A stretch of DNA of 64,000 nt, taken from positions 5,879,992 to 5,943,991 of the forward strand of contig CM119267.1 in assembly GCA_051294375.1 (NCBI GenBank), read 5' to 3'. How positions within the stretch are numbered: the stretch's first letter is position 1; the number at the start of each line of letters is the position of its first letter. Of this stretch, positions 1 through 63,892 are shown one piece after another. The translations under genes and the position numbers were made by a program. The notes under the pieces are model-generated. The model ran no database searches, was not told the DNA's origin, and worked only from the letters and a program-made list of their open reading frames with translations. Origin of the DNA: Paraspadella gotoi. Taxonomy: Eukaryota; Animalia; Chaetognatha.

Positions 1-1811
1 TTTTCTCCGACATCGAAATCGCGAAGGTCTGTCAGGCCCCACGTCCGCTGCGGTTCCTTCTGGGGCAAGCACGTCTCCCTAATGGGAACAATTCAAAAGC
101 GAAATTACCCAATAAAAAAAGGAAATAGCCTAACCAGTTTAAGAAACTTTTTCTTCCCGCCCCCTTTGCAGTGACACTGACCCGAACGAGAGGCCAGATC
201 CCTCGGAAGCCCCGGAATCGGAAAGGAATATGTCGAAGAGCTTATCGCCGCCGATGGCGGGGCTGCGCGCCGGGCGTCCGACTTCTTCCTCCTCATCCGA
301 AGTCAGGTTGAACAGGTCCGAGTAAGAAGTGGTGGCGGCGTCGTGCCAAAATCCGTCGTCCTCGTCGTCGTCGTCGTCCTCGGCAAAGATGTTGGACTTT
401 TCGCGGTAAATTGATGACGCGTTTGAGCCGAGGACGGACGGGGCGTTCGCCGGGCAGCGGTTCGCCGCTAAACTTGAATGCGTCGAGGCGCTCAGCGAAC
501 GTTCGTCTAGGGGAGGAAATATTAATATCGATAATATTGATTCAATATTTTTTCTGAAAATAGCAAATTATTTTTTAAAATGTTTTTTTTTTTTTTTGCA
601 CCAACGCAATTGTCAAATTATCCGACCTGCTGTGAAAAAATGATCAGATTCCTCGGAGCATCTTGCAGAATCATTGACTGTCTGGGCTGTTTGCCTGGAT
701 TCGGTCTCCGCGAGAAAGCAGAAGCAGCAGGGAACCGGCGTCCCGAAAGGTCCAGTCGGTTGATCGTTGTTGGGATGTCGAGGCTACGGGTGTAGAAAGG
801 TCAAGGAAATCCCGACTGGCAAAACCAATTTGACTTTTTTCTTAGCAAAGGACGAATTCGATTTTCAAGTCTTCATCAGCGTTTTACAGTTTGCATGCAA
901 AAGAGAGAGAGAGATATATATATATATATAATATTGTTTTAAAAAAATCACTACTAATCAGTTGTTTTTTTTTATTCTGTCTCACCACTTTGTTGGGAAA
1001 CTTTCATTTTCATTATTACACTTATGACTTTTCTCTTTTAACAAATACAATCGATGACTCGCCTTGCGGTATTTCCTTATCGCTCCCGCGTGATTCTGGT
1101 GTCGCACTCGATTCCACAGTACCGACGGGAGCACGCTCATGATCTCGTCGCAAGTGGCCTTGCTGCAGAGGGCGCGGAAGTTCATCCGCTTCCAGAGGGC
1201 GTCACGAGCCTGAAGGAAATTGGGATAGGTCCGGCGCCAATCCTCGCCGAGGCACCAGGGAAAGAGTTCGAACTTGAACTCCTCCTCATCGTCCTCCATG
1301 TCGAGGGCGAGGTAGAGGGCGACGAAGAAGTTTTCGGGGGTGTACTCTTTGACGGCAAAGTCGGCCCTGATGAAGTAAATAAAGACCATCGAGAGAGCGT
1401 AGTTGTCCGAAACTTTGAAGCATTTATCGCAGCGCAGGAAGTCGCGAATCAGCTTGGACTCGGTGAGGGAGAAGAAGGCGAGCAGCTGCTTGGTCCATGT
1501 GTGGAAGGGGTTCAGTTGCTGAGGGATCTCCACTACCTCCACAGCGGCCGACTCGGTAGCGCCCGCTTCGGAGGCGACGTTGGAATTTTTGTGCCGCTTA
1601 CATTGGAGTTGGTCACGGAACATGCCGTAGTATTGGGTGTTCTGAAAATGGAAAAGTTTATTTATTACATTACTCTGCCTACTCATAGAGTAGTTAAAAA
1701 CGAATGTATGAGGTACGAAAATACTTCGCTTGCCTGAGTATAGGAGTGACCAAAGTCCACAACAGGATCGGATAAGACAGGGACCGGAGGGTGACGCATT
1801 ACGGAGAGCAT
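1..1811 (-). CDS. SPDYA: Speedy/RINGO CDK activator (multi-exon; 3' end runs off the window)
   Basis: Spy1 domain in ORF 982..1890 (DFLRCDKCFKVSDNYALSMVFIYFIRA, FFVALYLALDMEDDEEEFKFELFPW, LWKRMNFRALCSKATCDEIM, WNRVRHQNHAGAIR). Splicing 1063->783 through a GC donor gives PTGPFGTPVPCCFC, matching the remembered Speedy PRGPSATPVDCSLC motif. Further exons are 783-627 and 506-~182. Start ATG at 1811 is tentative. Confidence 0.85.
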
Positions 1812-2048
1812 GATTCAAGTTAATTACAGGAAAGATTGAACTAAATAATGAGAGCGCGTGCACGAATTCGTGTGAGTGTAATAAAAACATTTACTCAAAA
1901 CTTTTGCGATGCAGATATATGCATAAAATAGTTAGAACAAGCGCAATGAAATATAATGAAAAGAAGCGACTAGCATCATAGGAATACTAAAATTATAAAT
2001 AAGTGAATCACTAAAACTTAAAAAAAATTTAAAAAAATTCTTCTTCAG

Positions 2049-3872
2049 CTAGTGTTCTTGCTGATGCTTTTGTTTGATTTTAAGCGATTCGGCTTCCCTG
2101 ATCTCGCGAAACACTTTCCTGTAAATCGAGGGAAAATGATCGGTGATAAAGTTTTCAAGAACTTCGATGCCTCCGCGTTCGATGTCGGCGGGTTCGCAAA
2201 GTTCGCAGGTGGAAGCCGCGAGATTCTCTGTGTGATCCCTGTTGATCCAGATCACCCTCCCAACGAGATAGAGACACGGAAAATCCGACTCAAACACCGC
2301 GCTCGTTGCCGATTCGACGTGAGTCTCGAGGATGTCGAGACTTTCCTCGTCTCCTTTGCTGCATTTTACGATGAGCTCGAGTCTTTGTTTGAAAGAGAGA
2401 TCGCAACCGTCGACGGCGAGTATGTCGCGAAGCAGACGGCAGACGGAGGCGAGGGAGAGTCTGGGAACGACGTCAGCGCCGTTCACGAAGGTGTAAATGC
2501 ATTGGCGCCATCGCTGGGGAACCGCGTCCACAGGGGCAAAGGTCGGAGGAGGGGCGTAGGCATAGCATGAGATTTCAGTCTCGCACAGCGGCGACGGAAG
2601 TTTGCCGGCGTCCTGTCGATGAAGAAAAACCATCGTGGTCAAAGTGGCCGCTCCAGCGCCAAGACTGTGACCGCAAACGACGAGGTCGTAGCCAGGGTTC
2701 TCCTCGAGTATCGAGTTAAGAAAGTTTTGGGTCTCATCGGCGAGCCTTACGGCGCAGAGACCCATGCCGCGGTGCGAGATTCCGAGGCCCAGGAAAGAGA
2801 CGCAATCCGCGCAGGCGTCCGTCAGAATGTCCGAGAGGGACATTGTGCCGCGAATGCAGAGGACCACGGCGAATCTGGCATCGTCGATGGCGACGAAGTA
2901 GCGCGGGAGGAGCGCCTTCTCGCCCTCGAGTTCCATGACGACGATGGCGTTGTCGTCGAGTCCCGTCATCTCGCGGATAATACGTCGGCTGACTCTGCTA
3001 CCTCTCTCGCTCCAATTTGACGTCTTTCTTGACCTTTTCTTAGAACTTTTGCCCGAGGAAAGATTGGACGCAATCGAGACTTTCTTCGATACATTTCCGC
3101 TGTCGTCGTCGATATTTTTGTCTTGCTCATCTTTAGCCGGAATCGTATTCATCGTTTCCTCTACATCCGCATCCTCAACATCATTTTTTGGGTATTTATA
3201 TTCTTCCTCTTTTTCGTCGGTCGCTTCCTCTACTTCTTCCCCAACGGGCTCGTCGCCGAAGAACGTCGTCGGATGATAGACCGTCGTTATGACGTGCGTG
3301 TTCAAGGGCGTCCCAAAGGCGGAGCTGGCGTACTGGAGAAATCCTTCCGACCTGTCGTCCAGGATGATGGGAACCCGATCTCGATCTTCCTTCGCCATCG
3401 CAAGTCGTTTGCGAGTTTGAAAAAGTTTCAACAGCATCAAATTGAGGAACAAGGGATATTTGGATTCGCGATAGTCCGCCTGTAGTTTAGAACTCATTGT
3501 TTTCAAGATAGTCTTTAGATTCTCAACGCATTCTTCGAACAAAGGAGTCATAAAACTGGGTTTGTCCCCCGCGGAGAGGCGAATGAGAAGAACGACTGCG
3601 CCGGTAACAACGGAACCGCCGACGCCGACGAGAAAACTTTTTCGACCGGTGAACCAGTAGACGAGAGCGCCACCGAGTAGGCTAAGGAGAGGTGTCGTCC
3701 ATCCAGGAAGCGACCGGATCGTCGCCGATAGTTCGGAACCGAAGGAGACGAGGGGTTTTGTCGAAAAAGATCGGTGGACGACTTGTTGCTGTGAGGGCGC
3801 AACTGAAGGAGGCTTTGGTGACGTCGGAGGAGCCTCTGAGCCCCGTCGTCGGAGAGTAGAGTCGTCAGACAT
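2049..3872 (-). CDS. Class-3 lipase / DAG-lipase-like alpha/beta hydrolase with two N-terminal hydrophobic segments, single exon
   Basis: Motifs CIRGTMSLSDILTD, HRGM, GHSLGAG (nucleophile elbow), YAYAPPP, FVNGADVVPRLSL, DHFP. Likely start is MSDDST at 3872; the ORF track extends to 3962 through AT-rich sequence. Confidence 0.8.
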   Translation of the reverse strand: MSDDSTLRRRGSEAPPTSPKPPSVAPSQQQVVHRSFSTKPLVSFGSELSATIRSLPGWTTPLLSLLGGALVYWFTGRKSFLVGVGGSVVTGAVVLLIRLSAGDKPSFMTPLFEECVENLKTILKTMSSKLQADYRESKYPLFLNLMLLKLFQTRKRLAMAKEDRDRVPIILDDRSEGFLQYASSAFGTPLNTHVITTVYHPTTFFGDEPVGEEVEEATDEKEEEYKYPKNDVEDADVEETMNTIPAKDEQDKNIDDDSGNVSKKVSIASNLSSGKSSKKRSRKTSNWSERGSRVSRRIIREMTGLDDNAIVVMELEGEKALLPRYFVAIDDARFAVVLCIRGTMSLSDILTDACADCVSFLGLGISHRGMGLCAVRLADETQNFLNSILEENPGYDLVVCGHSLGAGAATLTTMVFLHRQDAGKLPSPLCETEISCYAYAPPPTFAPVDAVPQRWRQCIYTFVNGADVVPRLSLASVCRLLRDILAVDGCDLSFKQRLELIVKCSKGDEESLDILETHVESATSAVFESDFPCLYLVGRVIWINRDHTENLAASTCELCEPADIERGGIEVLENFITDHFPSIYRKVFREIREAESLKIKQKHQQEH

Positions 3873-4305
3873 GACGGCTTTTTTAAAAGAGGCATGGCGA
3901 ACTAGAATATCGTCTAAAGTATATCGACGCCAAATATTGTTTAGTTTCAAAAATCTTTTCATTATTTAGAGTTGCTGCACTCATTTTACTTTTATATTAA
4001 TTTTTTTTTTACATTAATTTTTTCTAAAAGCGGGTCACGAATCCTATGAATTATCCGATCTAATATCACTGTTACAAATTTACGGCATTTATGGCATTCT
4101 GATGTTAATTCTGAAAAATTAAAAACTTCATAGACCTCTCCTTATCAAAAATTTCCGTAATGGCGTAGAGCATAATTACATAACTAGTTGGGGTTTTGGA
4201 ATTAAAAACATCTGCTTCAAAGAAATAAGAAAATATAATTGTTATGCGCACTCACAATAATACAACGAGGAAAAGAGAGAGATTATCAGAACCAGAACTT
4301 CAATA

Positions 4306-5952
4306 TCAGGAGAAAGACTGAACTTTAGTCCTTCCCTTGATAGAAAAAGTGGCGGCTATGGGGTAATGATCGGAACCCTCTTGGGAATTTGGCATCTTGG
4401 GTGCAGTGCCGGCGCGAGGTACGGAGCTTCTTCTGATCACTCGAAAGTCGGGCCCTGGATTAAAAAATATAAAGTCGACGCAGGAAGAGGCGCGATCATG
4501 ATTGGTCGTCATGATGTTCCCTGGCGACGAGTCCTCGCCGTCCCACGCGTGGTAAACTGAGCGAAACTTAAAATCGTGAGACAAAACGCCGGCGGCGACT
4601 CTGGCCGCGTTTTGCTCGTTTGTGGCGTCCATTTTCTTGCAGGAGGAAGAAATTCCGAGAAAAGGCGGAAGAAAATGGTCGCGGAATAAGTGCCCCTGCT
4701 TTGGCGGCGAACTCGGCGCACCCTCAGTCCCGGCCACGCGACGCTGGTCGAGGCCGGCGTAGCGGAGCATGCCCTTGACCACAAAGTCGAACAGCGGAAA
4801 ATGGGGCTCGAAATTCATGTCGCCGCAAAAGACGATGGGGACGTAGCCGAGAGTCTGCGGCGGATCGAGGTCGTTGCGGTATCGAGGATCCACCTTTCGA
4901 GCCACGAGATCCAATTCAGAGAAAAGAACTGCCAGTTGGGCTAGCTTGATGTCGCCCCGTCTAGGGTTGAAGAGAAGGTGAGCGGTGGCCACGCAGATGG
5001 GATCCAGAGAGCAGTATGTCAGCCCGTTTCCGTCGGGGGCGGCTGCCGCTGGAACGATTGGCTCGAAAAGCGCCACGACCCCGACGTTGTCGCGATCCAA
5101 CACCCGCACGCCCTTATTCATCTCGACTGGGTGGAACTTGACAAGTTGTAATCGACGGCGGCGATAGAAAATAGCCAGCCCGTCAGAGGGACCGTTGGTG
5201 CGTTTCTTGAAGCGGCCGTCGTATCCGTGTTCGGTGAGAACGGGGAAGAAAAAGTCGTGAAAATGACTCTGCTCCACCTCTTGCAGGCAAATTACGTCGG
5301 CGTCGTGAGCGAGAATTCGCGCCAGGATTAGTCGACGCCGCGACTCCCATTCCAGATCGCGCGATGGAATTTGAGAGTAGAGGTCGCTTCGGTGCGTTTC
5401 GACGTGCGACTGAGCGAGGACGTTGAAAGACAAAACGGTGAAGGCAAACTCTTCGTCGTCGCTTTCGCCGTCGGTTCGGTCGATCGCCGATCGCGATTCG
5501 TGACGCGGTCCAACGGACGGGCCACTCGAGAAAGTCTCGCCGCCCAACGCCGTCGAGCTTCTCTGGAAGAGCCTCAAGCGGTGATCCTCGAAAGTCGTCG
5601 TCGTCGAAGGAGGAGACGGAAGCGAGGGAGAAAAATCTCGAGACTCGACGGGAGTAAAGGCGCCTAAATTTTGCGGCAGCCGACCGTCAGCGTCGTTGAG
5701 GTAATAAACGTAAGGAATCGGACTCGCGGGGGGAAATGAGAATTGAGAGGGAGAGGAAAGTTGATCGTTTAAGTTAAACGGCGAGATCAAGGGCGGCGTC
5801 TCAGGAACCCGAAAGGCGGCATCGTAGAGGGCGGAGAGTCCGGATGAAGTCGTCGCCGATGATCCGGATCGAGAGTGAAACGCGAAGAGGCCGTGCTTCA
5901 TTTTAGATTCGGACTGTAATGGCTTTAAATGACGAAACAGAGTCGAGCGCAT
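4306..5952 (-). CDS. ANGEL2: Angel homolog (CCR4/EEP-family 2',3'-cyclic phosphatase), single exon
   Basis: EEP motifs VLSFNVLAQ, ICLQEVE, DGLAIFY, RDNVG, ATAHLLFNPRRGDIKLAQL (Angel-typical), CGDMN, VDFIFF, GSDHYPI. Start is ATG 5952 or 5901. The ORF-track start at 6012 is non-ATG and overlaps the GEMIN7 stop. Confidence 0.88.
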   Translation of the reverse strand: MRSTLFRHLKPLQSESKMKHGLFAFHSRSGSSATTSSGLSALYDAAFRVPETPPLISPFNLNDQLSSPSQFSFPPASPIPYVYYLNDADGRLPQNLGAFTPVESRDFSPSLPSPPSTTTTFEDHRLRLFQRSSTALGGETFSSGPSVGPRHESRSAIDRTDGESDDEEFAFTVLSFNVLAQSHVETHRSDLYSQIPSRDLEWESRRRLILARILAHDADVICLQEVEQSHFHDFFFPVLTEHGYDGRFKKRTNGPSDGLAIFYRRRRLQLVKFHPVEMNKGVRVLDRDNVGVVALFEPIVPAAAAPDGNGLTYCSLDPICVATAHLLFNPRRGDIKLAQLAVLFSELDLVARKVDPRYRNDLDPPQTLGYVPIVFCGDMNFEPHFPLFDFVVKGMLRYAGLDQRRVAGTEGAPSSPPKQGHLFRDHFLPPFLGISSSCKKMDATNEQNAARVAAGVLSHDFKFRSVYHAWDGEDSSPGNIMTTNHDRASSCVDFIFFNPGPDFRVIRRSSVPRAGTAPKMPNSQEGSDHYPIAATFSIKGRTKVQSFS

Positions 5953-6008
5953 TTCAAGGGAATCAAAGCGAAGTAAAAGATCTCGCCCTCGTGACAATCT
6001 TAAGACTT

Positions 6009-6393
6009 TCAATCGTCGACGCGGAAAGAGATGGAACGGATGTCGGTCGCTCGCAGGGTAGCGTGAGGGTAGGTTCCGTAAGGGGTTTTCAGCGAAGAGA
6101 CGTGAATGCGGCGAAATTCGAGGTCGACGGCCTTTAACTTGGCGGTCACTTGGTTGCCTGAATTCGAAAAAAAAAAAAATTTAAACACAACAAAAAATAA
6201 AACAATTTCGAAATCACATACTTTCGTGGAGTGTTATAGTAGCCGGACACCCCTCTTCTTGCAGCACGGTTTTCTGTAGCAAGTTTAAAAACCTGCGTCG
6301 CAGAAAAGCTCTTTCTTCTTGGTGTTTTTTAAGAATATCCAATTCGCACTTTACTTCGTTTCTCTTCTCTTTTTCGTCACTAACGGAAGTCAT
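6009..6393 (-). CDS. GEMIN7: Gem-associated protein 7 (Sm-like fold, SMN complex), 2 exons, 106 aa; absent from the ORF track
   Basis: Exons 6393-6222 and 6157-6009 joined by a phase-1 GT-AG intron translate to ...QEERAFLRRRFLNLL...ATITLHESNQVTAKLKAVDLEFRRIHVSSLKTPYGTYPHATLRATDIRSISF. This parallels remembered human Gemin7 RAALRERYLRSL...FTLHE...ATDLD...VSQLQTPIG...ALLRCSDIISYTF. Confidence 0.85.
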
Positions 6394-8433: not shown

Positions 8434-8913
8434 CTATGGTCGTCCCTTTGGTAGAACAAAGGACAAATCATCACCGAACTCTCCCCATTGAACGCGATGT
8501 GTTTGATAAACGACGATCCAAGCGACGATAGCAATGAACCATATTGTGCACCCGATCTGCAGGAAAAGCAAGGGTGTCAAATAAAAATAAAAATAATTCA
8601 AAATTTTACGAACAAGCATCGATATTTTATCAAACCTCCTTAACTACATAGATAATTGCAATGACTCAATGTATTTTCATATTTTCGCCAAGGTGCCAGG
8701 GCGCGTAAAATAACTCAAAACGCTCACCATCGATTTCAGGACGTATCCTCTGATAGCTCTTTGCTGTTCATAGGCTGGTTTTCGGCAAAAAGCCTCCCGA
8801 AAAAACCAGAGAGAGTTGACGCACCACAAAAAGGGAAGAAACGCGAATCCTCCATAAAAGTATTTTCGAGTCAAGGCGAGTTTGTCCTCGTCCTTGAAGC
8901 GGCTTAGATCCAT
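8434..8913 (-). CDS. PSENEN: Gamma-secretase subunit PEN-2, 2 exons, 102 aa
   Basis: Exons 8913-8728 and 8556-8434 (GT-AG): MDLSRFKDEDKLALTRKYFYGGFAFLPFLWCVNSLWFFREAF...GDDLSFVLPKGRP, the typical PEN-2 sequence and length. Confidence 0.95.
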
Positions 8914-9185: not shown

Positions 9186-9216
<31 letters not shown>

Positions 9217-9362: not shown

Positions 9363-12300
9363 TCAACTCCGCAAAACATCACGAACGAAATTTATGCCTT
9401 CGTCGTCGTCCGTTGTCGACATCAACGATTCTTTCAACGACCGGGACAGTTCGAGGTGACTCGACGGTGGTAAAGGAGCGGGAAGAACCTTCAAATCTCG
9501 ACCGGGAGTCTCCCGCACGTAAGAATGATAATGGTCTCTGGTTCGCTGTGCCTCTGCGTATCCCTCATTAAGGGTAGGAGGCGGTGGCGCCGCTGACGCC
9601 GGCCTTGGAGTCGACGAGATCCCTTCAGGATGCCGTCGATAATAAGCTTCTCGCGGGGAATAGTAGGGGGGGCGGGGCGAGGACGACCTGGCTCGATCGT
9701 CACGTCCTCCGGAATAACGACTACTCGAGAAGCTGGACGTGGAAGAGTCCAAACGAGTTGCGTATGAGAGATTTCTGGGACGAGCAGAGGCCGCATGCAG
9801 CCGTCCAGTTTCTTCGTAGACGTGGCGCGAGTCGTAATAATAATCTCGGCTAGAATCGCGCGAATTTGACCGGGAATTTACAAAATGCCTATCGTCGTGA
9901 TAGTGATTCGAGGGAACCGGTCGGGAGTCGCGGTGCGCCTCCACAGGCGGAGGTCGGCCGTACGGTTCCCCCGGATCAGGTCGAGAGTCGCGCGACGAAG
10001 ATCGATATTCCTCGTCCCGACGTCGCGACACGGCTAGGGGCTTCTCGCGATAATAAGGATCACGATCTCGAGAATACATATCCGTTTCCGATCGATCCCG
10101 CGTCGCCCCCCTCTCCGAGTCGTAATCTCTTTCCCTCGATCTTTGCGCAAGACGATAATCAGACTCCCTCTCTTGGTACAAGTCTCTGTCTCTGGAAACA
10201 CTCGCCGATGCCTCTTCGCGACGTTGACGAAACTCTTCCTCCGGACGAGGTTGTCTCTCGTCGTGCGGCCGAGATTCTTGATGAGAAAGGTCGCGAGAGC
10301 GTTGATCCTCTGGTGCTGGATCGTTTCGTCTGCCGTAACCGTCGTCGTATTCGCGCCGTCGCAAGCGTTCATCCTCGTATGCATCGGCGATCGGCCGTTC
10401 TCGTTCTCTTCGTCGATTCTCGTACGATTCTCGACGCCGGGGATCATCTTCCCAGCCTCGACTCTCTGGAGGATGCTTCGCTCCACTGGATCTTTCTTCC
10501 CCTTCTCTCATTCTCCTCTTATCATTGTTGACGCTTTCCCAATTGTCTCTCTCTGCCCGGCGGAAAGGTTCTTCAGTGGAGGAGCTGTCCCGTTCTCTGA
10601 TTCGTAACGTTTCGTCGTCACGGTGTCTTACCTCCGCAGCCGTATGACTAGAATCTAAAGAGGAGCGAGAAACGGAGACGGCTCGTGGCAGAGCTTGTGG
10701 CGGATTTGGCGTCGACGATGCATTCGCGGGCTGCTTCACATCGTCTTCTTCGTCCAACAATTCTCCTTCTTCAGGTTCTTCTTCAATCAGTTTTGTATCA
10801 GAGATTTTCGGTGCCGAACAAGAATTCTCGAGACAGGAAGGACCTTCACGAGGAACCGAAGAAGACGTCTGTGCGACGGTGGTTGCCATTTGAACATTCG
10901 ATTGAAGCTGAGGATCGGAAGGAGACTTACAATCGAGTTCGTTGTCCGAAACATCCTCAACACCACCGATTGCGGAAGAACTTTGTTCATCTCTGATAGG
11001 AGATAAGGCTCGAGTATCCGAAAGCAGCCTCTTCGGAGTAGGGGATGTTCGGTCCGCGTTCGAACCTTGACGACCGAATGAGTCATGGCGACGATTAGGC
11101 AATCTCTCAGTCGATGACCTTTCGTATTGCGACCAATCTGAAGAATGTCTAGTAAAGTTACGACGATTGTCAGGATGGTATTCGGAAAGATATCGTTCGG
11201 CCGAAGGGCGATCAGCTTGTCGATCGAGAGAATGGCGTTCAGTTGAACGGCGATCATCATATTGACGATTGGTACGGACGTCATAAGCGTAGCGGCGATG
11301 TTCTTCACGGTCGTAGATATCATGGTAATCTCTGGCATATCGATCAGAGCGGCGATTATGCTCCATCGGGAAACGATCAAACTTATGGCTTTTATCTTGG
11401 CTGCTGTTAGACTGGTCCTCATTGATAGACGGCTTCACATCGGCTGAGTGTCGTGCATTGATTAAATAGCTTTCTTCTAATTGCTGATCGATCTTTCGGC
11501 TTAATGAATGCTGAGAATTAGTTGCAGAGTCGCTGTCGTTGCGAACATCTTCCCTTGGATTTTTAGTGGACCGAAGTTCAGATTCAGAACTTGGGCTATG
11601 CTCAACCATCTCCCCTCGGGACATCGAGCTTGAGACTCTTTCGATCGAGGAACCCGGTCGTTCAGAGGCCTCTCTTCTGACTCTCTCTTTTTGTAGGCTG
11701 GCATCGGGCGACGGTCGATCGAAGGTGGGCACTACTTCTGAACGAGGACTTTGCGAAGAAGAGATTGCAATCTCGTCGAGATTCGAGTTTCCGAAGCCTT
11801 CTCGATCTGCGGAGCGCGGTCGATCTTCCCTCGATATTTTCTCAAAGTACCGTCCTCTCTCCGTCTTGTCCTTGGCCCAATTCCTTTTGCCAGTTTCCTG
11901 GGGGATTCGATACTGCATGGGTTTGAGGCCATCAGAGATCGACTCGTCCACGCCGCGCGCATAGGGATCCACGAAACCTTTAGCCAAGTCTTCGTCACGA
12001 TTTCGCTTGTCCAACTTTTCCAGCAGCACCTTAAGTTTGTTTTCCTTTTCCCGATTCCAATCCTCCTCGCGGCGATCGTGGATCTTCGCGCCGACCGGAC
12101 CGACGGAGGCGAGACCTTTGCCGTCCTTGTAAAAATGATATTTTTTCTCGATAACGCGCTTCTGGTGTTCCAACTGCGGAAAAAGGCTGCGGCACTCTTC
12201 CAAGGCGTTCCCGGCGGCGTCCATTTCTGCCTGTTGTATGGAATGGCCTTGGCCCTTGGCGAGGCGGACGCCGCGAAAATAGACGGCGACGGTGTAAGTC

Positions 12301-38975: not shown

Positions 38976-39432
38976 CCATCTAGGCAAAAAGTATATCACA
39001 TTTTTAGTGAAGGATATCTACTCGAAAACTTAAAAAGATCGTTACTACAAGTAAAAAATCTTACAATTTTTTATAAAGTTATTTAGTTTTTTACCATTTT
39101 TTGTATACAGTTATTAATTTTTATTTTAAATTGAGTTAATCATTTTTAAAATTTTTTTTAATTTGAGAATGCTAACAGTACCGCACCTCTTTCTAGTTTA
39201 TAAAGGTCCCATTACAGCTTTCAGAAAAGACGAGCAATATCGGCGATAGGGCTAAAAAATTTTTCCCTGTCATACATTAATTCGCTGTACAAAAGCACGC
39301 CCAGATGAATACAAGTAGTAATCGATACCAAAAGAGGACATACTAAATATTATCTTAACTATATTTTATATATTTTTTATTTAATAAAAAAAACTTTTTA
39401 ACGATTATGTGATATACTTTTTGCCTAGATGG
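38976..39432. mobile_element. MITE with 26-bp perfect TIRs and TA target duplication (Tc1/mariner superfamily-like)
   Basis: CCATCTAGGCAAAAAGTATATCACAT (38976-39001) and its exact reverse complement (39407-39432), flanked by TA on both sides, with an AT-rich non-coding interior. Confidence 0.82.
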
Positions 39433-39646
39433 TAATACATAATCTCGCCTAAGCCTTGGCCAAGGCCAATACTGCCGACATAATTGTATGATTGTAATAC
39501 GTAAAGGCAAACAGCGAACCCAATTTAAAAAATGTAGGGACTTTAAAGTTAATTTGTTATACAAAATTGAGAAAAATTTATCTATATTTAACTATTTGAC
39601 GGACAACTGCCAAAAATGAAGAGTCAACGTTCAACAATTCTTTTTT

Positions 39647-48700: not shown

Positions 48701-49337
48701 ACGGTCGTGTTTTCAACGACGACCCTTTCGAAAACGACGCTGACAAGTTGACGAATGGTGGCCGCAGCCGTGTTCATCGTCGTCGGGTCCTTGGTGAAAT
48801 GAAGGCGGAAGCAGAGCACGAGGGCCTTGGCCATGTCCCCGTGCATTACGTCCTTGGAGGTGTTGAGCAGCAGCACGGCCGTTTGCAGCAGCTTCAGCTC
48901 CTCCAGTCCGGCCTCCATCAGCGACCAGAGAACGTTGATGATGATGGAGCTGCTCTCCTTGGAGACGGCGTTATGAGAAATGAGGCGCTGGACGCCGCTG
49001 AGGCAGATGGGGATGATCTTGGCGTGCTTGGTGTCGCAACCGAGGACGAAAGGTTGAATGAGGTCGGCCGACGCCGCAGTTACTGACGCGATCACATCCC
49101 CGGAGGCTGACTTCGAAGAGATCGTCCGTAGTCGAAGGATGCCGGCCTCCGCGGCTTCCTGAAAACGAGAAAATTCGGTTTTTAACTAATGGGAGCAATA
49201 TGGCGAAGACCCATACCAGGCGCCCGTCGTCCCACCTTGACTGGCGGGAATTTTCTCTTGGCTTCATTGGAGAGAGATCTCAAGTCGCCTTGGAGACTTT
49301 CAACGAACTTTTTCGAGGAGGAACTTTTGGAGGCCAT
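42719..49337 (-). CDS. MON2: Protein MON2 homolog (Arf-GEF-like scaffold), 7 exons
   Basis: [20 protein letters not shown]|[105 protein letters not shown]; GT-AG introns. Confidence 0.95.
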
Positions 49338-53786: not shown

Positions 53787-55547
53787 TAAAAAATCGTAAT
53801 TTGCAACGTTGTCAAGATTGTTTTAATCTGAAAGATTTTTTCGGTAGTAAAAACTAAAATCATTCATATATCCAAATTTGTGATTGGTTTTGATTTGACT
53901 TGGTAATGAGCGGAGAAAAGTTGCTTTCAAAATCGTCTTTCATTTTAAAACTTGATTTTTCTTTCTTCAATCTGTTTTTCTAACTTTCTAAACATTTTTA
54001 TAAAAAAATATTACATAAAATAGTATCAATATTAATATCTTCTGAAAGCTCTTGAAAATATGAAGAGAATGGAATAATTAAAATTACTGTAATATAAAAA
54101 TTGGCCCATCCAGCTTTAAATCAAAAGGTAATCAAAACTAAATTAATTATTAAATTAATTATGTCCAACATCCTGAAGAGCAGTTTTGGAATAATTATTA
54201 AATTATTGTGAGCTATTTTAATTTAGTTTTTTTCAAGCTTTTTATGATACCTATATAAACAAAAATTGGTTATATCATTATAGTATAATTGGTCAGATAT
54301 TTGAAAAAAATATCTTTTCGGATTTTATTATGAATTTGGTACAATCAATATATATTTCAATTTTGATAACCTTGATTAAACTAAAGCTGGTTAGGCTTAT
54401 TTTTATGTTACAATATTCTTAAATATGTCATTTTTTAAAAATTTCAAAAGCTTTGAGAAGATATTAATATTGATACCCTTTTATATAAAAGTTCTTTAAA
54501 AAATGCTCAGAAAGTTAGACAAAAAGATTGAAAAAAATCTTAAAAGCATAAGGATCGTCGCAATCGCATAAGAAAAATCTGGATTGACGACAAATTTTGA
54601 TACTAAAAAAAATAAAATTTGAGAAAAGAAAATTAATTTATAAACAGAAAGAAAAATTATATTTTGCGATTGTCAATTAAAAAAAATAAAGTACCGAGGA
54701 AAATTAAAGTTACAGTTTCTGGAAAAAAAAAGAAAAAAAAGAAAAACCTTTTTCATTGTCAAAAAATAAACTGATCAGCAGACGCAGCCCCTGAGAAAAA
54801 AAACGAAATAAGAACCCGATGTTTCGATAGCAAAATGATAACATGCACAAATGCGATGCCTAATTTTTCAATCCTAATTCAATTTTTTTTTAATAAAAAC
54901 GCAGAGAGAGAGAGAAGCCAAATCGTTTTCGGACGAATCAGCAGTGGCATCAGCAGAGCAGAAAAAAAGAAAGAAATCAAAAAGCAGTAGCAGAAGAAGC
55001 AGGAGAAAAGAGAGAAAAAGAAAGAGCCCCTGCAGAGCCAGCTGCAGACTCGTTTTTTTTTCTCGATGAATCAGCACTGGGAAAAGAGAGAGAGATAGCT
55101 ACATATAATTAAAAGTGAAAAGAAAGAGAAGAGACATAAAAATAAAATATAGGATATTTGTTTGTTTTGATAAAACGTAAACAAAACATATTTAATAACT
55201 GTCCTGACCCAATTTTAAGGACATCGATGATGAGAAGCTGTATATAAATTTTCAGCTTCATACACCCAAATTTAATCATCAAAAAGGCGATCTATAACTT
55301 GGAACAACGACGACGACGCCGCCACTTAAGTGCAAAACCACAGCAAAATCGTCGCAAACGCAAAGCGATTGCGACAATAAAAAAGTTTTAAAACGAAAGA
55401 CGATTTTTAAAGCAACTTTTTCCCGGTTGTCAAATCATAACCAATCAATATGAAATTTGGATATATAAATCATTTTGGTTTTTACTACAGAAAAAATCTA
55501 TCAGATTCAAAAAATCTTCACAGGTTTGCAAATGGCGATTTTTTTTA
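53787..55547. mobile_element. Foldback/MITE-like element with ~270-bp diverged inverted arms; right arm interrupted by a HINE
   Basis: Left arm ~53787-54060. Its reverse complement is found in two pieces, ~54440-54537 and ~55385-55547, separated by the HINE copy. Outer ends are approximate. Confidence 0.75.
54538..55378 (-). mobile_element. Helentron-associated interspersed element (HINE/DINE-1-like), copy 2
   Basis: Colinear with 17814-18502 except for the variable middle. Sub-TIR ATCGTCGCAATCGC at 54554-54567; terminal hairpin 55348-55378; inserted into an A-run. Confidence 0.72.
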
Positions 55548-56061: not shown

Positions 56062-59000
56062 TTAATTTTTAGGACGGGATAATGGAGAACTTCTATCAAT
56101 TTTTATCTTTCTCGGAGAACTTCTACGAGGCGTCGTTTGACGCCAGCCTCTCTTCGCGACAGTTTGCTGCTGATGCTGCTGTTGCCGTAGGCTGGACTCA
56201 TTGCACGTCTTTCGCGGAGAGACTCGCCTGGTCGACCGAAAATCAAAATCGTCGTCATCGCCGTCGTCGTTGGGGGAAGTTAGCAACATCCTGGGTCTCG
56301 ATGTTTTCGGGGTTCCAGAAACGGCTTGCGTTTCGTTGTCCATGGATTGATCAGCTTTCGACGTTGGCGACAACCGCACCAATTTCACGCGGCAGGAATT
56401 GACGTCAGCTCCCGCTGTCTCCCTCGAGGACGCTGTCATCGTCCTTCGCCGATCGATCGGGCGATCGGATGGTTGAAAATCGTCCAAGTCATCGTAATCG
56501 GGCGGAAGCGGGGGCGAAATAAGATTGGGGCCTGAGTTTTTGGAGGTGGCGAGCGGGGTGGACGCGGCGAAAGCAGGGGCGGCGGATGGAGGGGTCGACG
56601 TCACGCAGCGAGGAGGCCGGCCGGACGGGGTGGTGGCCGAAAAACGGGACGGATCCCCATGTGAAATTTGAAATGGCGGAGCGGCGATGGAAGTTCCGAA
56701 AAGACGGGAGTTAAGAGTATGGCGAGGGGAGGCAGTGGAAGGTGAAGAAGAATTGCATAAAATAGTAGAATCAGCGTCTTGAATCGAAAAATCGTTTGGT
56801 TTTTTCTTGCGGCGCAACTTGTTAGTTCTGGCAGGAGTCATTACCACATCCGTGGCAGGTGCTGTCGCAATTTTGTTCAACAGATCATCGGCCATGGCGT
56901 CGATAACAGGATTATTAACCACACTTGGTACCGGATTATCCAAACGTCTAAACGACGATGTCAAGTCGATCGGTTTCGTTAGCGGTGGTTCTGATACGTC
57001 GGCTTCCATGTCTTTCGCCATCACCAGCGTTCGACGAGATCTTTTTATGGGCGGAGTCGAAGACGGCGACGCCACAACATGAACCTTATCCAGCGGAGCT
57101 GAAGACGTCGCACCCCGCCGACTTTTGGGCGGTGACCAGAGTTGTTCCGAGATAGAGCACTTGGCGATTTCCTTGCACGTTCGGAGGGAAGCGCGACGCG
57201 TGGGCGTTGATCTCTCTGACGCCCGCCTGGGTCCCTTCACGCTGGGAGAGGGCAAGCGTTTGGGCGTCGATGGTTTAGACACATTTTTTGCGAACGGAGC
57301 GACTTCGACGAGGGTTTCTTCGGATGCTTCGGAAGGCGCGAGGGAATTGGAGGAGTTTCGGCGAACGAGGCGAATACCGAGACGCGCGTTACGAGTAGGC
57401 GTGAGTTCATACTCGGCGTCGCCGACTGGAAAGTGTTTGGGAGCCACATCGCGGGAGTCGGGCTGATGAGGGGGTTGTGATGTAGAGCCTAAAATATATA
57501 AAAAAAGTTTCATATTGCTTAATGCATGAAAAGAAAGAAAGCAGCAAATACCCTGTGAATTTTTATGAACCAAATCGAAATAGAAAAATCGTCGGTGTGA
57601 ATCTTTCACCGAAAATTTTGCTTGGAGATTGTATACAATTTAACGTCAAAGATGGGAGAAAATTTGAATCAGAAGTTCCAGGTACACTTCAATGTGAATC
57701 AGAAGCACTAAGTTCTAGGGATATAAGTTATGCCGCCTTTGATCAAGCGATTTATGAACACAGTTTCAACAAATCCAAGGAACCTTGGTTTCTGAAAAAA
57801 CCTCAGATTTTGAAAATCCACCAGTGTGTGGAAACAAGGTTCAGCCAAAATCACTAGAGACTCCCAACTCCAGATGATGATGGAGCAGGGCTGACCAGTG
57901 ACTGAAAGATGCACCTTTTTAACAACAAATGGAATCAACTTTCTCATCAAAAATAAGTGCAGTATAACTTACCTTTACCCTTTTCTCATGAAGCCAAGAC
58001 ATCTTTTTACTTCATTTTTTGTAATTTAGTAACATTAATTAAATGTGTTTACAAAAACCCACATCGTTAACTGCGCTGAATCAGATTGTAGAAGCAAATA
58101 TGCAGCAGATTACCGGGAAAATTTTTTTTTAAAACCTCGTGAATTTTAGGAATTAAATTTTTTTATCTCTAGAAAGGAGGACATCATGAGCATACACTAA
58201 GTATAAATCTGGTACATTTTAAAAACGTCAAGGACTTTTCTATCAAATGATATATATATAATAAGTTAACTTTTATTGAGTAGTTTCTGGGTAATAAATT
58301 TTTAGTTTGTGCCGGGGTAGATTCAATAGTAACGCTCACTAAAATTAAAAATAAAACTTCACCTTGAGAAGGTGTCCGGCATCTCGAACCGGACGGACTA
58401 GAAGGTCTGGAGATGCTGATCCGAACGCCTTTTCTCGACGGAGTGCAGACGTAGGTAGACGCGCCCAAGTCTGGGTTGGTGGGAATCTCATTTATTAAGG
58501 CATAGTTGGCCCGAAGAGGTCGCGTTCTCCGAGGCGGCGTGTCGTGCGACAGCGAGGAGAGGGCCGCGGCGGCGGCGCCGAGGATGGCGGCGTTAGGATC
58601 GATGGGAGAGAGCGACTTTTCCAAATGATCGTTGAACTTTGAGATGGTGTTCTCCAAAAAATCGTCGGCGATTGGCTGAGCGTGGGTTTCCTCTACACCG
58701 GCGTCGTTCTCTTTCTTTTCCCTCCTCTCCGCCTTTACTTGTTCCTTTGCTAACTTCTTCATTTTCCTCTTCTCTTCCTTCTGCTTTCTCTTCTCCTCCC
58801 TTCGAGCCTCCTTGGCCGTCCGCTCCGACGAGTTCTGCCGACTCAACTCCGGCGTCTTGCCCGTCGTGATCTCCATCATTCCGCGCTGAAAGTTGGACGA
58901 GACATTGGCCGAAGCTTTGACGGCAGACTTTCGAAGACCCAGTAGTTGGGCGAGCTTGGCGCAGACCATGTCCGCGCTCTTGGTCGATGGCGAGGATGCT

Positions 59001-61741
59001 TCTCCGGTTGTCTGAGAGGACTGGTACGGAAGGGTCGAGTCGTTGGCCGACTTATCGGCCTCGGGTGACTCGTCCGCGGGAACATAGTACCAAAACGGTT
59101 TCCGATCCCTTTTCTTGGCTTCTGGACTTCGAGACTCCCGGTTAGTCGCGACAGTTCGGGACGGAGTCGTCTCGATTTTAGGGACAGGCGGAGAACAAAC
59201 GGAAAGAGACTTCCGGGTCAAAGGTCGGCGCCTCTCGGCCGTCGATTGTGTCGACGACGAAGCTGCGGAGAAAGATGGGACGGGGGACGGGGTGCCTGCA
59301 CAATTTCTCGTCCTTTTTTTAGACGGGGAACGAGACGGTGTAGAATCTTTTGAATCTAAAGGTTTTGTCGCTCGTAACTTCATAGTTGAATTAGAGACAT
59401 TCTTCGTTGGTGAATCTTCCTCGTTCCTAACTCTAACTGGAGGAACTGATGAAGCCAACGCTGGAATTGCGATAACTACGGGTGGCTGTGGTTTCGGATT
59501 CTCTTTTAAAATTTCTGTAGCTGAAGAAATTTCTGCCAAAATTGGGGAGGCACTTTGTGTCGGACATTTAGGAGTTGACTCGGTTGAGTTTTCGAACGGG
59601 ACCAAGCCAGAAGTTTGCCCTAGGGTGGTAGCACTTGAATTAGGTTTGAGTAATTCTTTCATAGTCGACAATGTATACTGTGAATTGTGCAAAAGAGTTG
59701 TGGACCGAAATGCTTCTTTTATTTTTATAGATTCGTTAAAAGGCACTTTCTGCGACTGCTGGCTTGAAAATAGAGTCTTATTTAATTCATTCATGTCGAG
59801 AGCGATTTCAACGGATTCCTTTGAATTCATAGAAACATCAGATTTAGGAGCTTCGTCGTATTTAGGGGGATTTTCTGATGAACCAGGAACAGCAGTGTTG
59901 TAATCATTAATCGTTGACGAAGCTGTTGTCGGCGTATAAGTAGGTTTATCCGAGCAAGCAGTAATAACGGTCAGTGCTGACAAGGAAGGAGCACCAATTG
60001 GATGTTCTGGGGTTGTTTCTTTCGTAGTAGTCGTCGACTTAGCGCATTCCTGACTATCCGCCGCTTCAACAATACAAGATAAATCTCTAGAGTCAGCAGC
60101 GGGTGTCGTCGTTGTTAACGTCGTCGAGGCCTCTTTCTTTTTCTTAGCTCCAGATCGATTAAGAGTCGCAATCGCGGCCATTTTTAGCTTTTTGGCCGAA
60201 GGTGAAAAACCGCGATTCGACGACGTCGGCGAGAAAAATCGAGGCGATTGCATCGAACGCCGCAACTTGCTATTACCCTTGCAATGGGCCGAATCGGGCT
60301 TGGGTCGGCACGGCGTTTCGCAGGCGTCGCGCGGGGGCGTAGCCGTAATCGTTTCGGTCGTCGTCGATGACGGAGGCGTTTTTGTCATCTCCGTTTCCAC
60401 GAATTTCGTCAACAAATCGGAGATCGAGGGCAGAGAGGCGATCATCGCGTCGATGGAAGCGAAGTTGGAAGAGTCGGAAACGAAGGCGGCGTGTTTGGCG
60501 GAGAGAACGTGCTCGTCGATCCCCTCGCGATAATACTCTTGGCAACATTCGCAAAAACCAGCCTTCTTCTCGACCTCCTTTCTCTTTAAGGCCTGTTTCA
60601 ATCTATCTTTAAAAGTGTGATCTTTTTTCTCCATGGACTTTCTGTTGACATGGTCAGGAGCCAGGTCTTCGTCGGCAGGAGACGCATCAGCTGCCGCCAC
60701 CTCCGCCGCCTTCTTTCTTTGCTGCCTCGTCGTTGCCCTATTCGGGATATCTCCGACATCGGCTTCAGACTTGTCGTCGCCACGACCACCAATCCCGTTT
60801 TTGACAAATGGGGAAAATGTCGAGGGTCGGCCGTTGAGATAAAGCACCGGCCATTCCCTTAACTCGGCTACGACTGGACGCAGGTTTCCGGAAAGATCTT
60901 CGATCTTGAGAAAGGGAGCCCGGAGCGTCCTCAACTTCGCTTCTTGGAAAACACCGGCATCGGTCGCATCGGAAGGAGCAACGGCGGCGGGTGAATTGTC
61001 TCGCGAAGACAGTTTTTTCTTCCAATTGTCAATGAGTTGAAGAAGAGCGTCCACATGAATGACCTTAATTCCCAAGGCTTTAGCCTTGGCTAAAATTCCC
61101 GACAATTTGACGACACCACCGTCCGAATTTCTCGAGGTTCCTGCCTTCGCAACGTTTTCGGCCGTCGCTTGGATGCTGTTTGTTTGTCGTTTGCCGCTAC
61201 TGCCACGCGCTTTTTCCAGAAGAGCCTGAGCGCGTGAAACTTTAGCGGGCGGCGCCAAAGCGCAACTCGCGGCACCCGGAGATCCGTCAATGGGCGACGG
61301 GGTGTCGGCGGGGGAATCGAGGATGAGCGGCGATCGATAGGGGCTACGAGAATCAGAGTCACGACCGACAGAGTGATGCTTCTTCCAGTAACGCGCTTCC
61401 TCATCATTAGAGACAACGTAAGAAGTGTCTTTGGAAAAGCAGCCATCGACGATGCCTCCCAAAGCCATCACCTCTTCAGCCACGCGTTTGGTCAACGAAG
61501 GCTTTGCGCATTTTAACTCCAAGTAAAAGGATTTGCCCTCGAAGGGCAGCCTCTTGCCCGTCGAGTGTTTTCGCAGCCTCTCGGCGGAATTATCGTTGCG
61601 CGAATTATCCTTGGAGCTGCTGTTCGTGTTAGGAGGTGTTGAGAGGCCGGCTTCAACGCGACTTAAGGACTGAGATGTCGCCAGACCAGAAACGGGCGCG
61701 CTGGCGCCGCGGCTTCCACCGCGGTGACTTCGAAATGACAT
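56062..61741 (-). CDS. DBF4: DBF4/Chiffon (Cdc7 kinase regulatory subunit), 2 exons, ~1601 aa
   Basis: Motif N/BRCT (LPFEGKSFYLEL...LGGIVDGCFSKDTSYVVSN), motif M (LRAPFLKIEDLSGNLRP...WPVL), motif C zinc finger (KKAGFCECCQEYY...HVLSAKHAAF). Exon 61741-58363 joins exon 57488-56062 in phase 1; assignment of exon 2 to this gene is inferred. Confidence 0.88.
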
Positions 61742-61961
61742 GGTTTATCGGCCGCAACAACGGCCATTCATAAAATCAACATGATTAGAATGATTCAATA
61801 ATTTCTGAGGTAAAAAAAGGGGTAATTAACCTTAAAAAAATCAATCGTAAATTTAGTAAATCTAAAAAATCCCAATAGAAATATAACATCTACGCAGAAT
61901 CCAAATTAATTTATAATTTGTCGATTAGACCCAACCCCTCCCAAGATAAACGGTAAAGAAA

Positions 61962-63892
61962 TTAAAATTTTAAATTGAGTAACGTATTTCGCTCTCTTGT
62001 ACTGAAAAGAATTTTGTTGGACTTTGCTTGAGCAAAGACGTCGAGGCATTGAGATAAAATTGTTCTCGTTTCTTCCGGAGCGATAACTCCGTCGATCCAA
62101 CATCGCGACGACGCGTGCAGAGCGGTTCGCTCGTTAGCCAATCGTCCTTCCAGTTTCGATCGGTAGTCTTCAGGAACATCCGGAAAAGCATGGAAAACGG
62201 CGCTGGGCTCCAACAAACCTGTAATAATATTAATAACTTGAGAGGGAAAAAAATTGTGCGAAAATTTTAAAATTAAAAAAAAAGTGTGACAAAAAATATA
62301 AGTTAAATTCGCAACTTTTCCGTTATCGCCCATACCTGGAATAGGCGGCGATGCCTGTGGCCAAGCGAAGTAAAATCGCGGCCCGGAAGCTGGGGGCGCC
62401 GCAACGAAGGCGGATACGTCACTGTTGCACCCCGTTGCCACGGTGACCACGGGAGATCCACTGCAAGCGAAGGCGGTCATGAGTTGAGAGTGCGCTCGGA
62501 TAGTGGGCGTGACTTCGTAAAAATCGGACGCCGAATCCTCCGGAGATAATACAAGATTTGTCACGAAACGAGACATGTTAGATTCTCCTTTGGCCTTTCC
62601 ATCGCAACAAGCCAAAACTATCAATGGAATGTCTCTCTGGGCGCAGATTTGAACAAAGTGGCATCCCTTGATGGCGTCCTGCTTGGCGACGGGACCGCCG
62701 AAGCCGATTATCCCGACCAATCTGCCGTTGAGATGGGCGAATCCCGCTCGAGTCAGTAACGAATCACCGTAATGGGCCCTGAATTCTTGAAATCTGCCGT
62801 CGTCGACGACGGAAATTAGGATTTCGTAAAAATCTGGATCGTTTCTCGAAGCCAAGGCGGACGGAGGACTGGCGGGTGGCAGAGGGTCGAGAGACGGAGG
62901 TGGGAGGGAATCGAGATTTAACGAGGCGACGATTGAGCGAATCATGGAAAAGGCTGAAGAGGAAGTGTTTGGTAAAACCCGTTTTGAATTTTTATCGAGA
63001 TTTCTAGAATTCTATTCACCTTCCTCTTCCGTCTCCGCGTAATGATCAGTGCATCCGCTGACGCGACAATGGAGATCAGCGCCGCCTAATTCTTCCGCTG
63101 AAACGGTCTCCCCCAAAGCGGCTTTGACCAGGGGCGGCCCGCCAAGGAACACGTGGCCAACGGCCTTTACGATAATCGACTCGTCCGACATGGTGGGCAA
63201 GTATGCTGCTCCGGCCGTGCAACTGCCGCATACGAGAGCTAACTATCAGTAAAATGAAACCCAAGAAGTCGGGAGAAAAAGTTTTTAATTTCGTCAACGA
63301 ACTAATCCAACTTTTATATCGACACCTGCGGAATGCCTTTGGCTGACATGACGGCTTGATTGTAAAAGACGCGTCCTCCAGGATTAAAGATTTCCGACTG
63401 AAGCGGGAGAAAGGCGCCGCCAGAGTCGATGACATATACGCAGGGCAAAGAGTTTTGAAGGGCGATTTCCTGCGCACGCAACTGTTTTCTGACGGATATA
63501 GGAAACATTGTTCCGCCCTTGACGGTCGCGTCGTTGGCGGTCACGAGGCAAAGTCGATCGTGAATGGCGCCGATTCCTGCAACCATGCCGGCGGCGGGAA
63601 CGTCGCCGTAGTCCATGCCAAGCCCAGCATGGAGAGAAAGTTCGAGGAAAGGGGAGTCTGGGTCCAATACGCTTGCGACACGATCGCGTGGGAGGACCTT
63701 TTTGTTTTCGCCGACGTGCTTTGAGGCGCCGCGCTTTCCCCCGCCGGCCAGGGCCAAGGAGGTGGCCTTCTCGAAAGCCTCGCGGTCGGGATTAGGCGCG
63801 GCGGCGGGTGCGGTGGCATCCAATTTTAAACGAGGAAATGCGGTAGTGGAGGCACGGCGGAGGGAATGGGAATGGAGGACACGAGGAATCAT
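61962..63892 (-). CDS. Methylcrotonoyl-CoA carboxylase beta-like carboxyltransferase (MCCC2 paralog type), 4 exons
   Basis: [98 protein letters not shown]. The Arg/Ser-rich N-terminus from ATG 63892 resembles a mitochondrial presequence. Confidence 0.85.

What the first reader, a model, noticed from the sequence alone, without database searches (positions are those of the whole stretch)
1..63892. 64 kb of unidirectional, tightly packed genes: candidate animal operon / polycistronic cluster
Seen: all 15 confident genes (16 with the orphan) are on the minus strand and no credible plus-strand gene exists. Stop-to-next-ATG spacers in transcription order are 220, 2391, 329, 825, 431, 1926, 454, 488, 892, 449, 200, 406, 56-107, 433 and 237 nt; the two longest contain transposon insertions. 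With independent random orientation, 15 co-oriented genes has probability (1/2)^14. The genes are unrelated, so tandem duplication does not explain it. Known: nematodes, tunicates, flatworms and some other animals resolve operons by spliced-leader (SL) trans-splicing, usually with only a few genes per operon. Inference: one or several long operons, possibly approaching a kinetoplastid-like directional gene cluster in an animal genome.
Basis: partly seen in the sequence, partly recalled or inferred. Interest (0 to 1): 0.82.

Follow-up and report, generated by a model that had tools for sequence, protein, structure and literature searches.

The report
One-strand chain of arrow-worm operons
Fifteen unrelated genes lie head to tail on one DNA strand across 64 kb of what is likely an arrow-worm genome, and one spliced RNA assembly runs unbroken through four of them, so the region is likely a chain of operons, likely cut into single messages by leader trans-splicing as already known in arrow worms, with one run of 7-10 genes that would match or exceed the longest operon published for the group.

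Summary
In detail: 15 intact spliced genes, all on the minus strand, spacer lengths as reported; none of 64 plus-strand ORFs reaches a Pfam cut-off. The 16th 'orphan' is unsupported. On the 6.2 kb where RNA could be laid, one spliced contig crosses three spacers (Gemin7-Angel-lipase-Speedy), and its 5' end computes to an unpaired splice acceptor, as leader trans-splicing predicts; no leader sequence was seen. The animal is likely a chaetognath (earlier scan notes; my MON2 tree is compatible), where operons are known: 18% of genes, longest nine (PMC12460157). The quoted (1/2)^14 overstates the surprise: a 21,000-gene genome gives 0.6 such runs at random and 2-3 with published operon rates, and with spacers up to 500 nt linked only four junctions are free. 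A single kinetoplastid-like unit is not shown. It is not excluded either: a 2008 Spadella BAC table lists 14 of 14 host genes on one strand over 120 kb, and the scan noted 9- and 14-gene runs on other DNA of this genome.

The parts
61962..63892 (-). Carboxyl-transferase gene (MCCC2-like; name recalled), 4 exons, 554 aa
   Evidence: Pfam Carboxyl_trans on three exons; open spliced frame
56062..61741 (-). DBF4-like gene (name recalled), 2 exons, 1601 aa
   Evidence: zf-DBF and BRCT; model; the join to exon 2 is inferred from frame and splice signals
53788..55544 (.). Transposon-like insert with inverted ends in the 2391-nt spacer; shares about 600 nt with an insert in Drosha intron 3
52030..53670 (-). 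PM20D1-type M20 peptidase, intronless, 546 aa
50163..51700 (-).
   Evidence: no hits; three-frame reading
42719..49337 (-). MON2, 7 exons, 1822 aa
39647..42287 (-). 3'-5' exonuclease gene (EXD1-like; name recalled), 5 exons, 760 aa
   Evidence: DNA_pol_A_exo1; model
38974..39434 (.). MITE-like element with perfect 28-nt inverted ends in the 1926-nt spacer
27262..37720 (-). ASPM-like gene (name recalled), 15 exons, 2831 aa; first gene of the 10-gene run with spacers under 900 nt
   Evidence: CH and IQ domains; model
24714..26807 (-). F-box gene, 2 exons, 671 aa
20959..24225 (-). Copine with two alternative last exons (554 or 599 aa)
   Evidence: C2 and Copine domains; models
9363..20066 (-). 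Drosha-like gene (name recalled), 11 exons, 2473 aa; first gene of the 7-gene run with spacers under 500 nt
   Evidence: two RNase III domains and dsrm; model
8434..8913 (-). PEN-2, 2 exons, 102 aa
6800..8233 (-). C2H2 zinc-finger plus Myb-like gene, intronless, 477 aa
6412..6432 (-). Unpaired 3' splice acceptor 19 nt before the Gemin7 ATG (exon starts at 6412); likely leader-addition site
   Evidence: 7.8 bits and no donor of 5 bits or more in the 406-nt spacer; the contig's 191 loose letters equal 6222-6412
6009..6393 (-). Gemin7, 2 exons, 106 aa
   Evidence: Pfam Gemin7; splice join seen as the loose end of contig 5
4306..5901 (-). Angel 2 homolog, intronless, 531 aa; starts 107 nt after the Gemin7 stop
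2049..3872 (-). Class 3 lipase, intronless, 607 aa
1..1811 (-). Speedy/Spy1, at least 5 exons and 405 aa, runs off the window
   Evidence: Pfam Spy1; four splice joints in run X1; model
1063..6157 (-). Stretch covered by one spliced 5194-nt contig of run X1 with 0 mismatches, crossing three spacers
   Evidence: tables 5, 7, 8

Best explanation
The 15 genes lie on one strand and one spliced RNA contig runs through four of them; they likely form a chain of a few operons (predicted units of about 2, 1, 2 and 7-10 genes) in a likely arrow-worm genome, each likely transcribed as one precursor and likely cut into single messages by 3'-end formation and spliced-leader addition at unpaired acceptors. 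Shown: orientation, spacers, splicing, and continuous RNA coverage across Gemin7-Angel-lipase-Speedy. The longest unit would be Drosha to Speedy (7 genes, 20 kb, spacers 107-449 nt), extending to ASPM (10 genes, 37.7 kb) if the 892-nt copine-Drosha gap is read through.
For: One 5194-nt contig of run X1 lacks intron 1642-1733 and the Gemin7 intron, has 0 mismatches over 5003 aligned letters and crosses 3 of 3 spacers in the stretch laid. Its remaining 191 letters begin as Gemin7 exon 1, and 191 is exactly the distance from the donor at 6222 to the best acceptor at 6412. As an internal control, the Speedy contig starts at 785, keeping the AG shared by exon and intron, whereas the Gemin7 contig shares no G with its upstream partner; 42 of 50 cis donors here end in G and the published chaetognath leaders end in A. 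X1 holds 0.94 of sampled words of 1001-11000; introns alone predict 0.958 and loss of the three unlaid spacers 0.845, so little of those spacers is missing from the run. Gemin7 to Angel is 107 nt with no AATAAA; 7 of 14 spacers have no donor of 5 bits or more. Chaetognaths trans-splice about half their genes and put 18% in operons (PMC12460157). MON2 is a long branch beside annelids, nemerteans and molluscs (SH-aLRT 91).
Against: No leader sequence was seen: none of the 8 loose ends shown (of 22) is leader-like, and the contig does not break at the 5' ends of Angel, lipase or Speedy. A contig across genes does not show a single transcript; unspliced contigs at depth 9-15 lie in intron 784-1062, so precursor or DNA at about 5-8% could make the bridge, and no silent-stretch control was laid. 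It is one run of one study. The 191-letter argument assumes that letters I could not see are collinear. Acceptor enrichment before ATGs is weak: 6 of 15 against 16 of 138 windows at a post-hoc 7-bit cut, but Mann-Whitney p = 0.15 and shuffle p = 0.07. No named chaetognath protein was hit; the tree row is flagged as unsure and lacks flatworms, rotifers, nematodes and tunicates.
Confidence: 0.6

Rival explanations
1. The whole run is one directional transcription unit of 15 or more genes, as in trypanosomes: one promoter upstream of the window, transposons merely sitting in transcribed spacers.
For: 15 of 15 genes co-oriented and both ends open: contig 1 (3986 nt) runs about 3.4 kb past the left edge. 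T exceeds A on the gene strand in all 14 spacers (0.02-0.26). The repeat in the 2391-nt spacer also sits inside a Drosha intron, so it can be transcribed through. Spadella BAC 35A21 lists 14 of 14 named host genes on + over 120 kb across seven gaps above 1 kb, and its minus-strand rows are transposon entries. Unchecked scan notes report 9- and 14-gene runs elsewhere in this genome.
Against: No RNA was laid on the long spacers. With spacers up to 500 nt (or 1 kb) linked, only 4 (or 3) junctions are free, p = 0.06 (0.13). Simulations give 2.2-3.3 runs of 15 or more per genome from published operon rates alone. The BAC was picked by its authors for co-orientation and its table lists only predictions with a SwissProt match. 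T/A skew falls to about zero or below in parts of the 1926 and 2391 gaps. The contig break at the Gemin7 acceptor also fits a promoter upstream of Gemin7.
Confidence: 0.2
2. Each gene has its own promoter in a compact region; 3' ends overlap or read through into the next gene, which lets the assembler join neighbours, and the shared strand is a tail event.
For: At random orientation a 21,072-gene genome has at least one run of 15 in 46% of 300 simulations. No leader sequence was seen, and contigs can be joined by overlap.
Against: 107 nt between Gemin7 and Angel, 200-237 nt elsewhere, and a run share of 0.94 leave little untranscribed room. A contig end exactly on an unpaired acceptor is not expected from a plain start site. 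Operons are documented in the likely phylum.
Confidence: 0.12
3. Gemin7, Angel, lipase and Speedy stay on one mature polycistronic mRNA that gets a leader only at its first gene, with downstream frames translated by leaky scanning or reinitiation.
For: The contig starts at the Gemin7 acceptor and runs to Speedy without a break or a short loose end in the rows shown; acceptors within 110 nt of the Angel, lipase and Speedy ATGs are weak (4.1, 2.4 and 0.6 bits).
Against: Short leader tips are normally clipped by assemblers (my knowledge, not tested), so an unbroken contig is expected either way; chaetognath downstream genes such as PCNA carry leaders (PMC2481426).
Confidence: 0.08

Closest known systems
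Chaetognath operons resolved by spliced leaders: Paraspadella gotoi (PMC12460157) and Spadella cephaloptera RPS14-PCNA (PMC2481426)
   Same: Unrelated housekeeping and cell-cycle genes head to tail on one strand, short spacers, cis-introns present, likely the same phylum.
   Different: The published maximum is nine genes under a 250-bp gene-to-gene rule; here 7 genes are linked at 500 nt or less and 10 at under 900 nt between coding ends, inside a 15-gene run. The two rules are not the same measure. Leader reads were not seen here.
Spadella BAC 35A21 co-oriented cluster (PMC2481426, Table S5)
   Same: 14 of 14 named host genes on one strand over 120 kb with transposons between them; the authors remark that clustered same-orientation genes could be operonic.
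   Different: Different genes, lower density; only one two-gene operon was confirmed there.
Tunicate operons (Oikopleura dioica, PMC11067885; Ciona, PMC7986045)
   Same: Same-strand genes within 500 bp, loosely related housekeeping and cell-cycle functions; nine genes in a reported Oikopleura operon, up to seven predicted in Ciona.
   Different: Different lineage (likely), single leader, mostly much shorter intercistronic distances.
Kinetoplastid polycistronic transcription units (Leishmania major, PMC11708010)
   Same: A unidirectional array of functionally unrelated genes.
   Different: There all protein genes lie in such units without gene promoters; here 51 cis-introns, transposon-filled gaps of 2-2.7 kb, and no evidence of one initiation site.

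Membership tests
Metazoan operon resolved by spliced-leader trans-splicing | Adjacent unrelated genes on the same strand with short spacers | tested here: met
   15 of 15 on minus; 10 of 14 spacers at or under 500 nt
Metazoan operon resolved by spliced-leader trans-splicing | Continuous RNA across the intercistronic region | tested here: met
Metazoan operon resolved by spliced-leader trans-splicing | Non-genomic leader joined at an unpaired acceptor of downstream genes | tested here: inconclusive
   Contig end computes to the Gemin7 acceptor, but no leader letters among 8 of 22 loose ends shown; acceptor enrichment p = 0.07-0.15
Metazoan operon resolved by spliced-leader trans-splicing | No promoter of their own for downstream genes | not testable with these tools
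   Needs CAGE, PRO-cap or ATAC; contigs cannot show starts
Metazoan operon resolved by spliced-leader trans-splicing | Leader RNA genes in the genome | not testable with these tools
   No genome held; none in the window by Rfam or by a published leader motif
Chaetognath genome | Proteins group with named chaetognath sequences | tested here: inconclusive
   MON2 is 47-51% identical to nearly all of the 120 listed hits, none a named chaetognath; long branch beside annelids, nemerteans and molluscs; the assignment leans on unchecked notes
Kinetoplastid-type directional gene cluster | Long unidirectional array of unrelated genes | tested here: met
   15 genes over 64 kb, both ends open
Kinetoplastid-type directional gene cluster | One initiation region for the array and genome-wide organisation into such arrays | not testable with these tools
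   No genome, no nascent-RNA data; chance concatenation of operons suffices

The most novel reading that the evidence does not exclude
Arrow worms keep their housekeeping genes in trypanosome-like directional clusters: single transcription units of 15 or more genes and 60-120 kb or more, read through transposon-filled gaps and resolved by leader trans-splicing, which the 250-bp operon rule has cut into short operons and so hidden. This window, the 2008 Spadella BAC and two other runs noted in this genome would be four examples.
Probability: 0.25. Interest if true: 0.82.

Novelty: new member of a known kind. Interest (0 to 1): 0.5.

Why it matters
If the 7-10 gene unit is real it equals or exceeds the longest operons I found reported for animals (nine in Paraspadella and Oikopleura, seven in Ciona) and places Drosha, a gamma-secretase subunit, Gemin7 and a CDK activator under one promoter, shifting their control to RNA processing and translation. 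If the whole strand domain is one unit, an intron-rich animal has converged on trypanosome-style transcription. The question is directly testable on existing chaetognath genomes by counting strand run lengths and mapping start sites.

Tried and rejected
No whole genome is held, so genome-wide strand statistics and a leader-gene search were impossible. The run search listed no holder on record as RNA; X1 is a guessed RNA run whose contigs proved spliced; X2 and X3 gave only 31-32 nt matches and were ignored. RNA could be laid only on the first 6.2 kb, which leaves 11 spacers open. The metagenome scan with an Angel alignment read 4 of 64 parts and returned 47 loci at 23-58% identity on their best, often short, segments, none a near-full-length close relative, so gene order in relatives was not tested. 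No look-alike stretch in other scanned genomes. AATAAA is no guide: it occurs in 4 of 14 spacers and 1 of the 11 under 1 kb. The acceptor-before-ATG test was not significant by rank or shuffle. The orphan gene was rejected as unsupported. Supplementary Table 1 of PMC12460157, which would give operon status of orthologs, is too large to read; its readable supplements mention operons once. PMC10282587 held nothing on unidirectional gene runs. Seven literature searches listed no paper describing directional clusters in chaetognaths beyond the 2008 remark; most subscription papers are not searched.
Full report
Observation. I read the whole window, scanned 94 ORFs against Pfam and built gene models by coordinates until each read without an internal stop. 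Fifteen genes result, all on the minus strand: in transcription order a carboxyl transferase, DBF4-like, PM20D1, MON2, an exonuclease, ASPM-like, F-box, copine, Drosha-like, PEN-2, a zinc-finger/Myb gene, Gemin7, Angel, a class 3 lipase and Speedy. MON2, PM20D1 and Angel are named by database hits; PEN-2, Gemin7, copine, Speedy, F-box and lipase by Pfam; the MCCC2, DBF4, EXD1, ASPM and Drosha names are recalled from domain content. Coding exons fill about 66% of the window, with 51 introns. Of 64 plus-strand ORFs none reaches a Pfam cut-off. The orphan between PM20D1 and MON2 has no support, so I treat that gap as 2692 nt and the gene count as 15.

How surprising is it. The figure (1/2)^14 ignores that a genome offers thousands of starting points. 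In 300 simulations of 21,072 genes, random orientation gave 0.64 runs of 15 or more per genome (at least one in 46%); forcing the operon links published for Paraspadella gave 2.2 to 3.3. Linking spacers of up to 500 nt, the rule used for Oikopleura (PMC11067885, passages), gives units of 2, 1, 2, 3 and 7 genes and four free junctions, p = 0.06; at 1 kb the units are 2, 1, 2 and 10, p = 0.13. So the tight packing is the real signal, and the full 15-gene run needs only a few operons and modest luck.

RNA evidence. No holder is on record as RNA, but run X1 holds 0.94 of the sampled words of 1001-11000. Laid on 1-6163, its contigs skip four introns with canonical ends, so it is spliced RNA. One 5194-nt contig covers 1063-1641 and 1734-6157 with no mismatch, crossing the Gemin7-Angel (107 nt), Angel-lipase (433 nt) and lipase-Speedy (237 nt) spacers. 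Its last 191 letters begin as Gemin7 exon 1 (30 letters shown, identical to the window from 6222), and 6222 to 6412 is 191 letters, where 6412 is the first base after the best acceptor in that spacer, which has no donor of 5 bits or more. Assembled contigs stop where two paths meet; the Speedy contig illustrates this by starting at 785, keeping the AG that exon and intron share. The Gemin7 contig keeps no G, although 42 of 50 cis donors here end in G; the chaetognath leaders listed in PMC2481426 end in A (passages). This fits leader addition at 6412 but is an inference from lengths. The share of 0.94 compares with 0.958 if only introns were missing and 0.845 if the three spacers between Drosha and Gemin7 were also missing (binomial error 0.007), so those spacers are mostly in the run too, as UTR or precursor.

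Limits of the RNA evidence. No leader letters appear in the 8 loose ends shown (14 more were not shown). The contig does not break at Angel, lipase or Speedy, which fits clipping of short leader tips but also an uncut polycistronic message. Unspliced contigs at depth 8.7 and 15 lie in intron 784-1062 against 181 for the spliced contig, so low-level precursor or DNA is present, and no silent stretch was laid as control; intron 1642-1733 shows no coverage (106.5 seen, 106.55 expected). Acceptor-like sites within 110 nt of the ATG score 7 bits or more for 6 of 15 genes against 16 of 138 control windows, but the cut was chosen afterwards and the rank test (p = 0.15) and shuffle test (p = 0.07) are not significant.

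Which animal. Earlier notes of this scan call the genome an arrow worm; these are unchecked leads. My own test is compatible but not proof: the large MON2 exon is 47-51% identical to nearly all of the 120 listed hits from arthropods, molluscs, annelids, nemerteans and deuterostomes, with no named chaetognath. In a 36-row tree built from 35 of those 120 hits it is a long branch beside annelids, nemerteans and molluscs (SH-aLRT 91), a placement the tool flags as unsure, and flatworms, rotifers, nematodes and tunicates were absent.

What is known. PMC12460157 (abstract, passages, section 5, three PDF supplements searched) reports trans-splicing of about half the genes of Paraspadella gotoi, 18% of genes in operons defined by gaps under 250 bp, enrichment in germline markers, and a longest operon of nine genes; its gene table could not be read and may already list this cluster's orthologs. 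PMC2481426 (passages and the whole of supplementary file 2) confirms an RPS14-PCNA operon in Spadella and remarks that other BAC genes are clustered in one orientation. Its Table S5 lists 14 named host genes with an orientation, all on +, over 120 kb and across seven gaps above 1 kb (my count; one start coordinate is misprinted and was guessed). I left out one unidentified row without orientation, a tyrosine recombinase row and the transposon rows, which hold all four minus entries; g15 and g16 may be one gene. That BAC was selected for co-orientation, and so was this window, so their probabilities cannot be multiplied. Tunicate operons reach seven (Ciona, PMC7986045, passages) and nine genes (Oikopleura). 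Kinetoplastid units comprise all protein genes, lack gene promoters and begin at strand-switch regions (PMC11708010, passages). Seven searches listed no description of directional gene clusters in chaetognaths beyond the 2008 remark.

Mechanism. Most likely (0.6) a few promoters, probably in the 1.9-2.7 kb gaps and upstream of the window, drive precursors spanning several genes; each gene's 3' end is formed and a leader is spliced onto an unpaired acceptor in front of the next, while cis-introns are removed normally. Transposons have landed in the longer gaps and in Drosha introns. Shown: orientation, spacing, splicing, RNA continuity over four genes. Inferred: taxon, leader addition, unit boundaries. 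Rivals are one unit for the whole domain (0.2), independent promoters with read-through (0.12) and an uncut polycistronic message (0.08).

Verdict. A real and partly RNA-supported example of a mechanism already known in the likely phylum, at or beyond the published size limit; the kinetoplastid-like reading is unproven but has an independent hint in print and is easy to test. New member of a known kind, interest 0.5.

Noticed in passing
window 33954, 12918, 1733, 1062 (minus strand donors): Four of 51 introns are GC-AG, three with the same GCGAGT donor; the two in Speedy are confirmed by RNA joints. That is about 8%, above the roughly 1% I recall for most animals.
   Followed up: partly
window 9363-12200: The Drosha-like frame continues about 940 residues past its dsRNA-binding domain as a low-complexity Arg/Asp/Glu/Ser-rich tail with no Pfam hit; Drosha normally ends soon after this domain (recalled).
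   Followed up: no
window 20959-22093: Copine has two duplicated alternative last exons (21934-22093 and 20959-21253) with a proline/tyrosine-rich frame between them (about 21425-21676) that may be a further exon.
   Followed up: partly
window 4306-6180: Gemin7 exon 2 is overlapped in another frame by the open frame that continues into Angel (624 codons without a stop), with an upstream in-frame ATG 56 nt after the Gemin7 stop.
   Followed up: no
window 784-1062: Speedy has a retained-intron or short form (stop at 982) seen at depth 9-15 beside the spliced form; the spliced contig runs about 3.4 kb past the window's left edge and may hold further genes.
   Followed up: partly
window 17809-18507 and 54533-55383: The same repeat (87-97% identical pieces) sits in Drosha intron 3 and in the DBF4-PM20D1 spacer in the same orientation; further elements with inverted ends at 14578-15315 and 38974-39434.
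   Followed up: partly
window 30038-30888: A 405-nt tandem duplication (about 90% identical) inside the IQ-repeat exon of the ASPM-like gene.
   Followed up: no
window 6800-8233: An intronless protein joining five C2H2 fingers to a C-terminal Myb-like domain.
   Followed up: no
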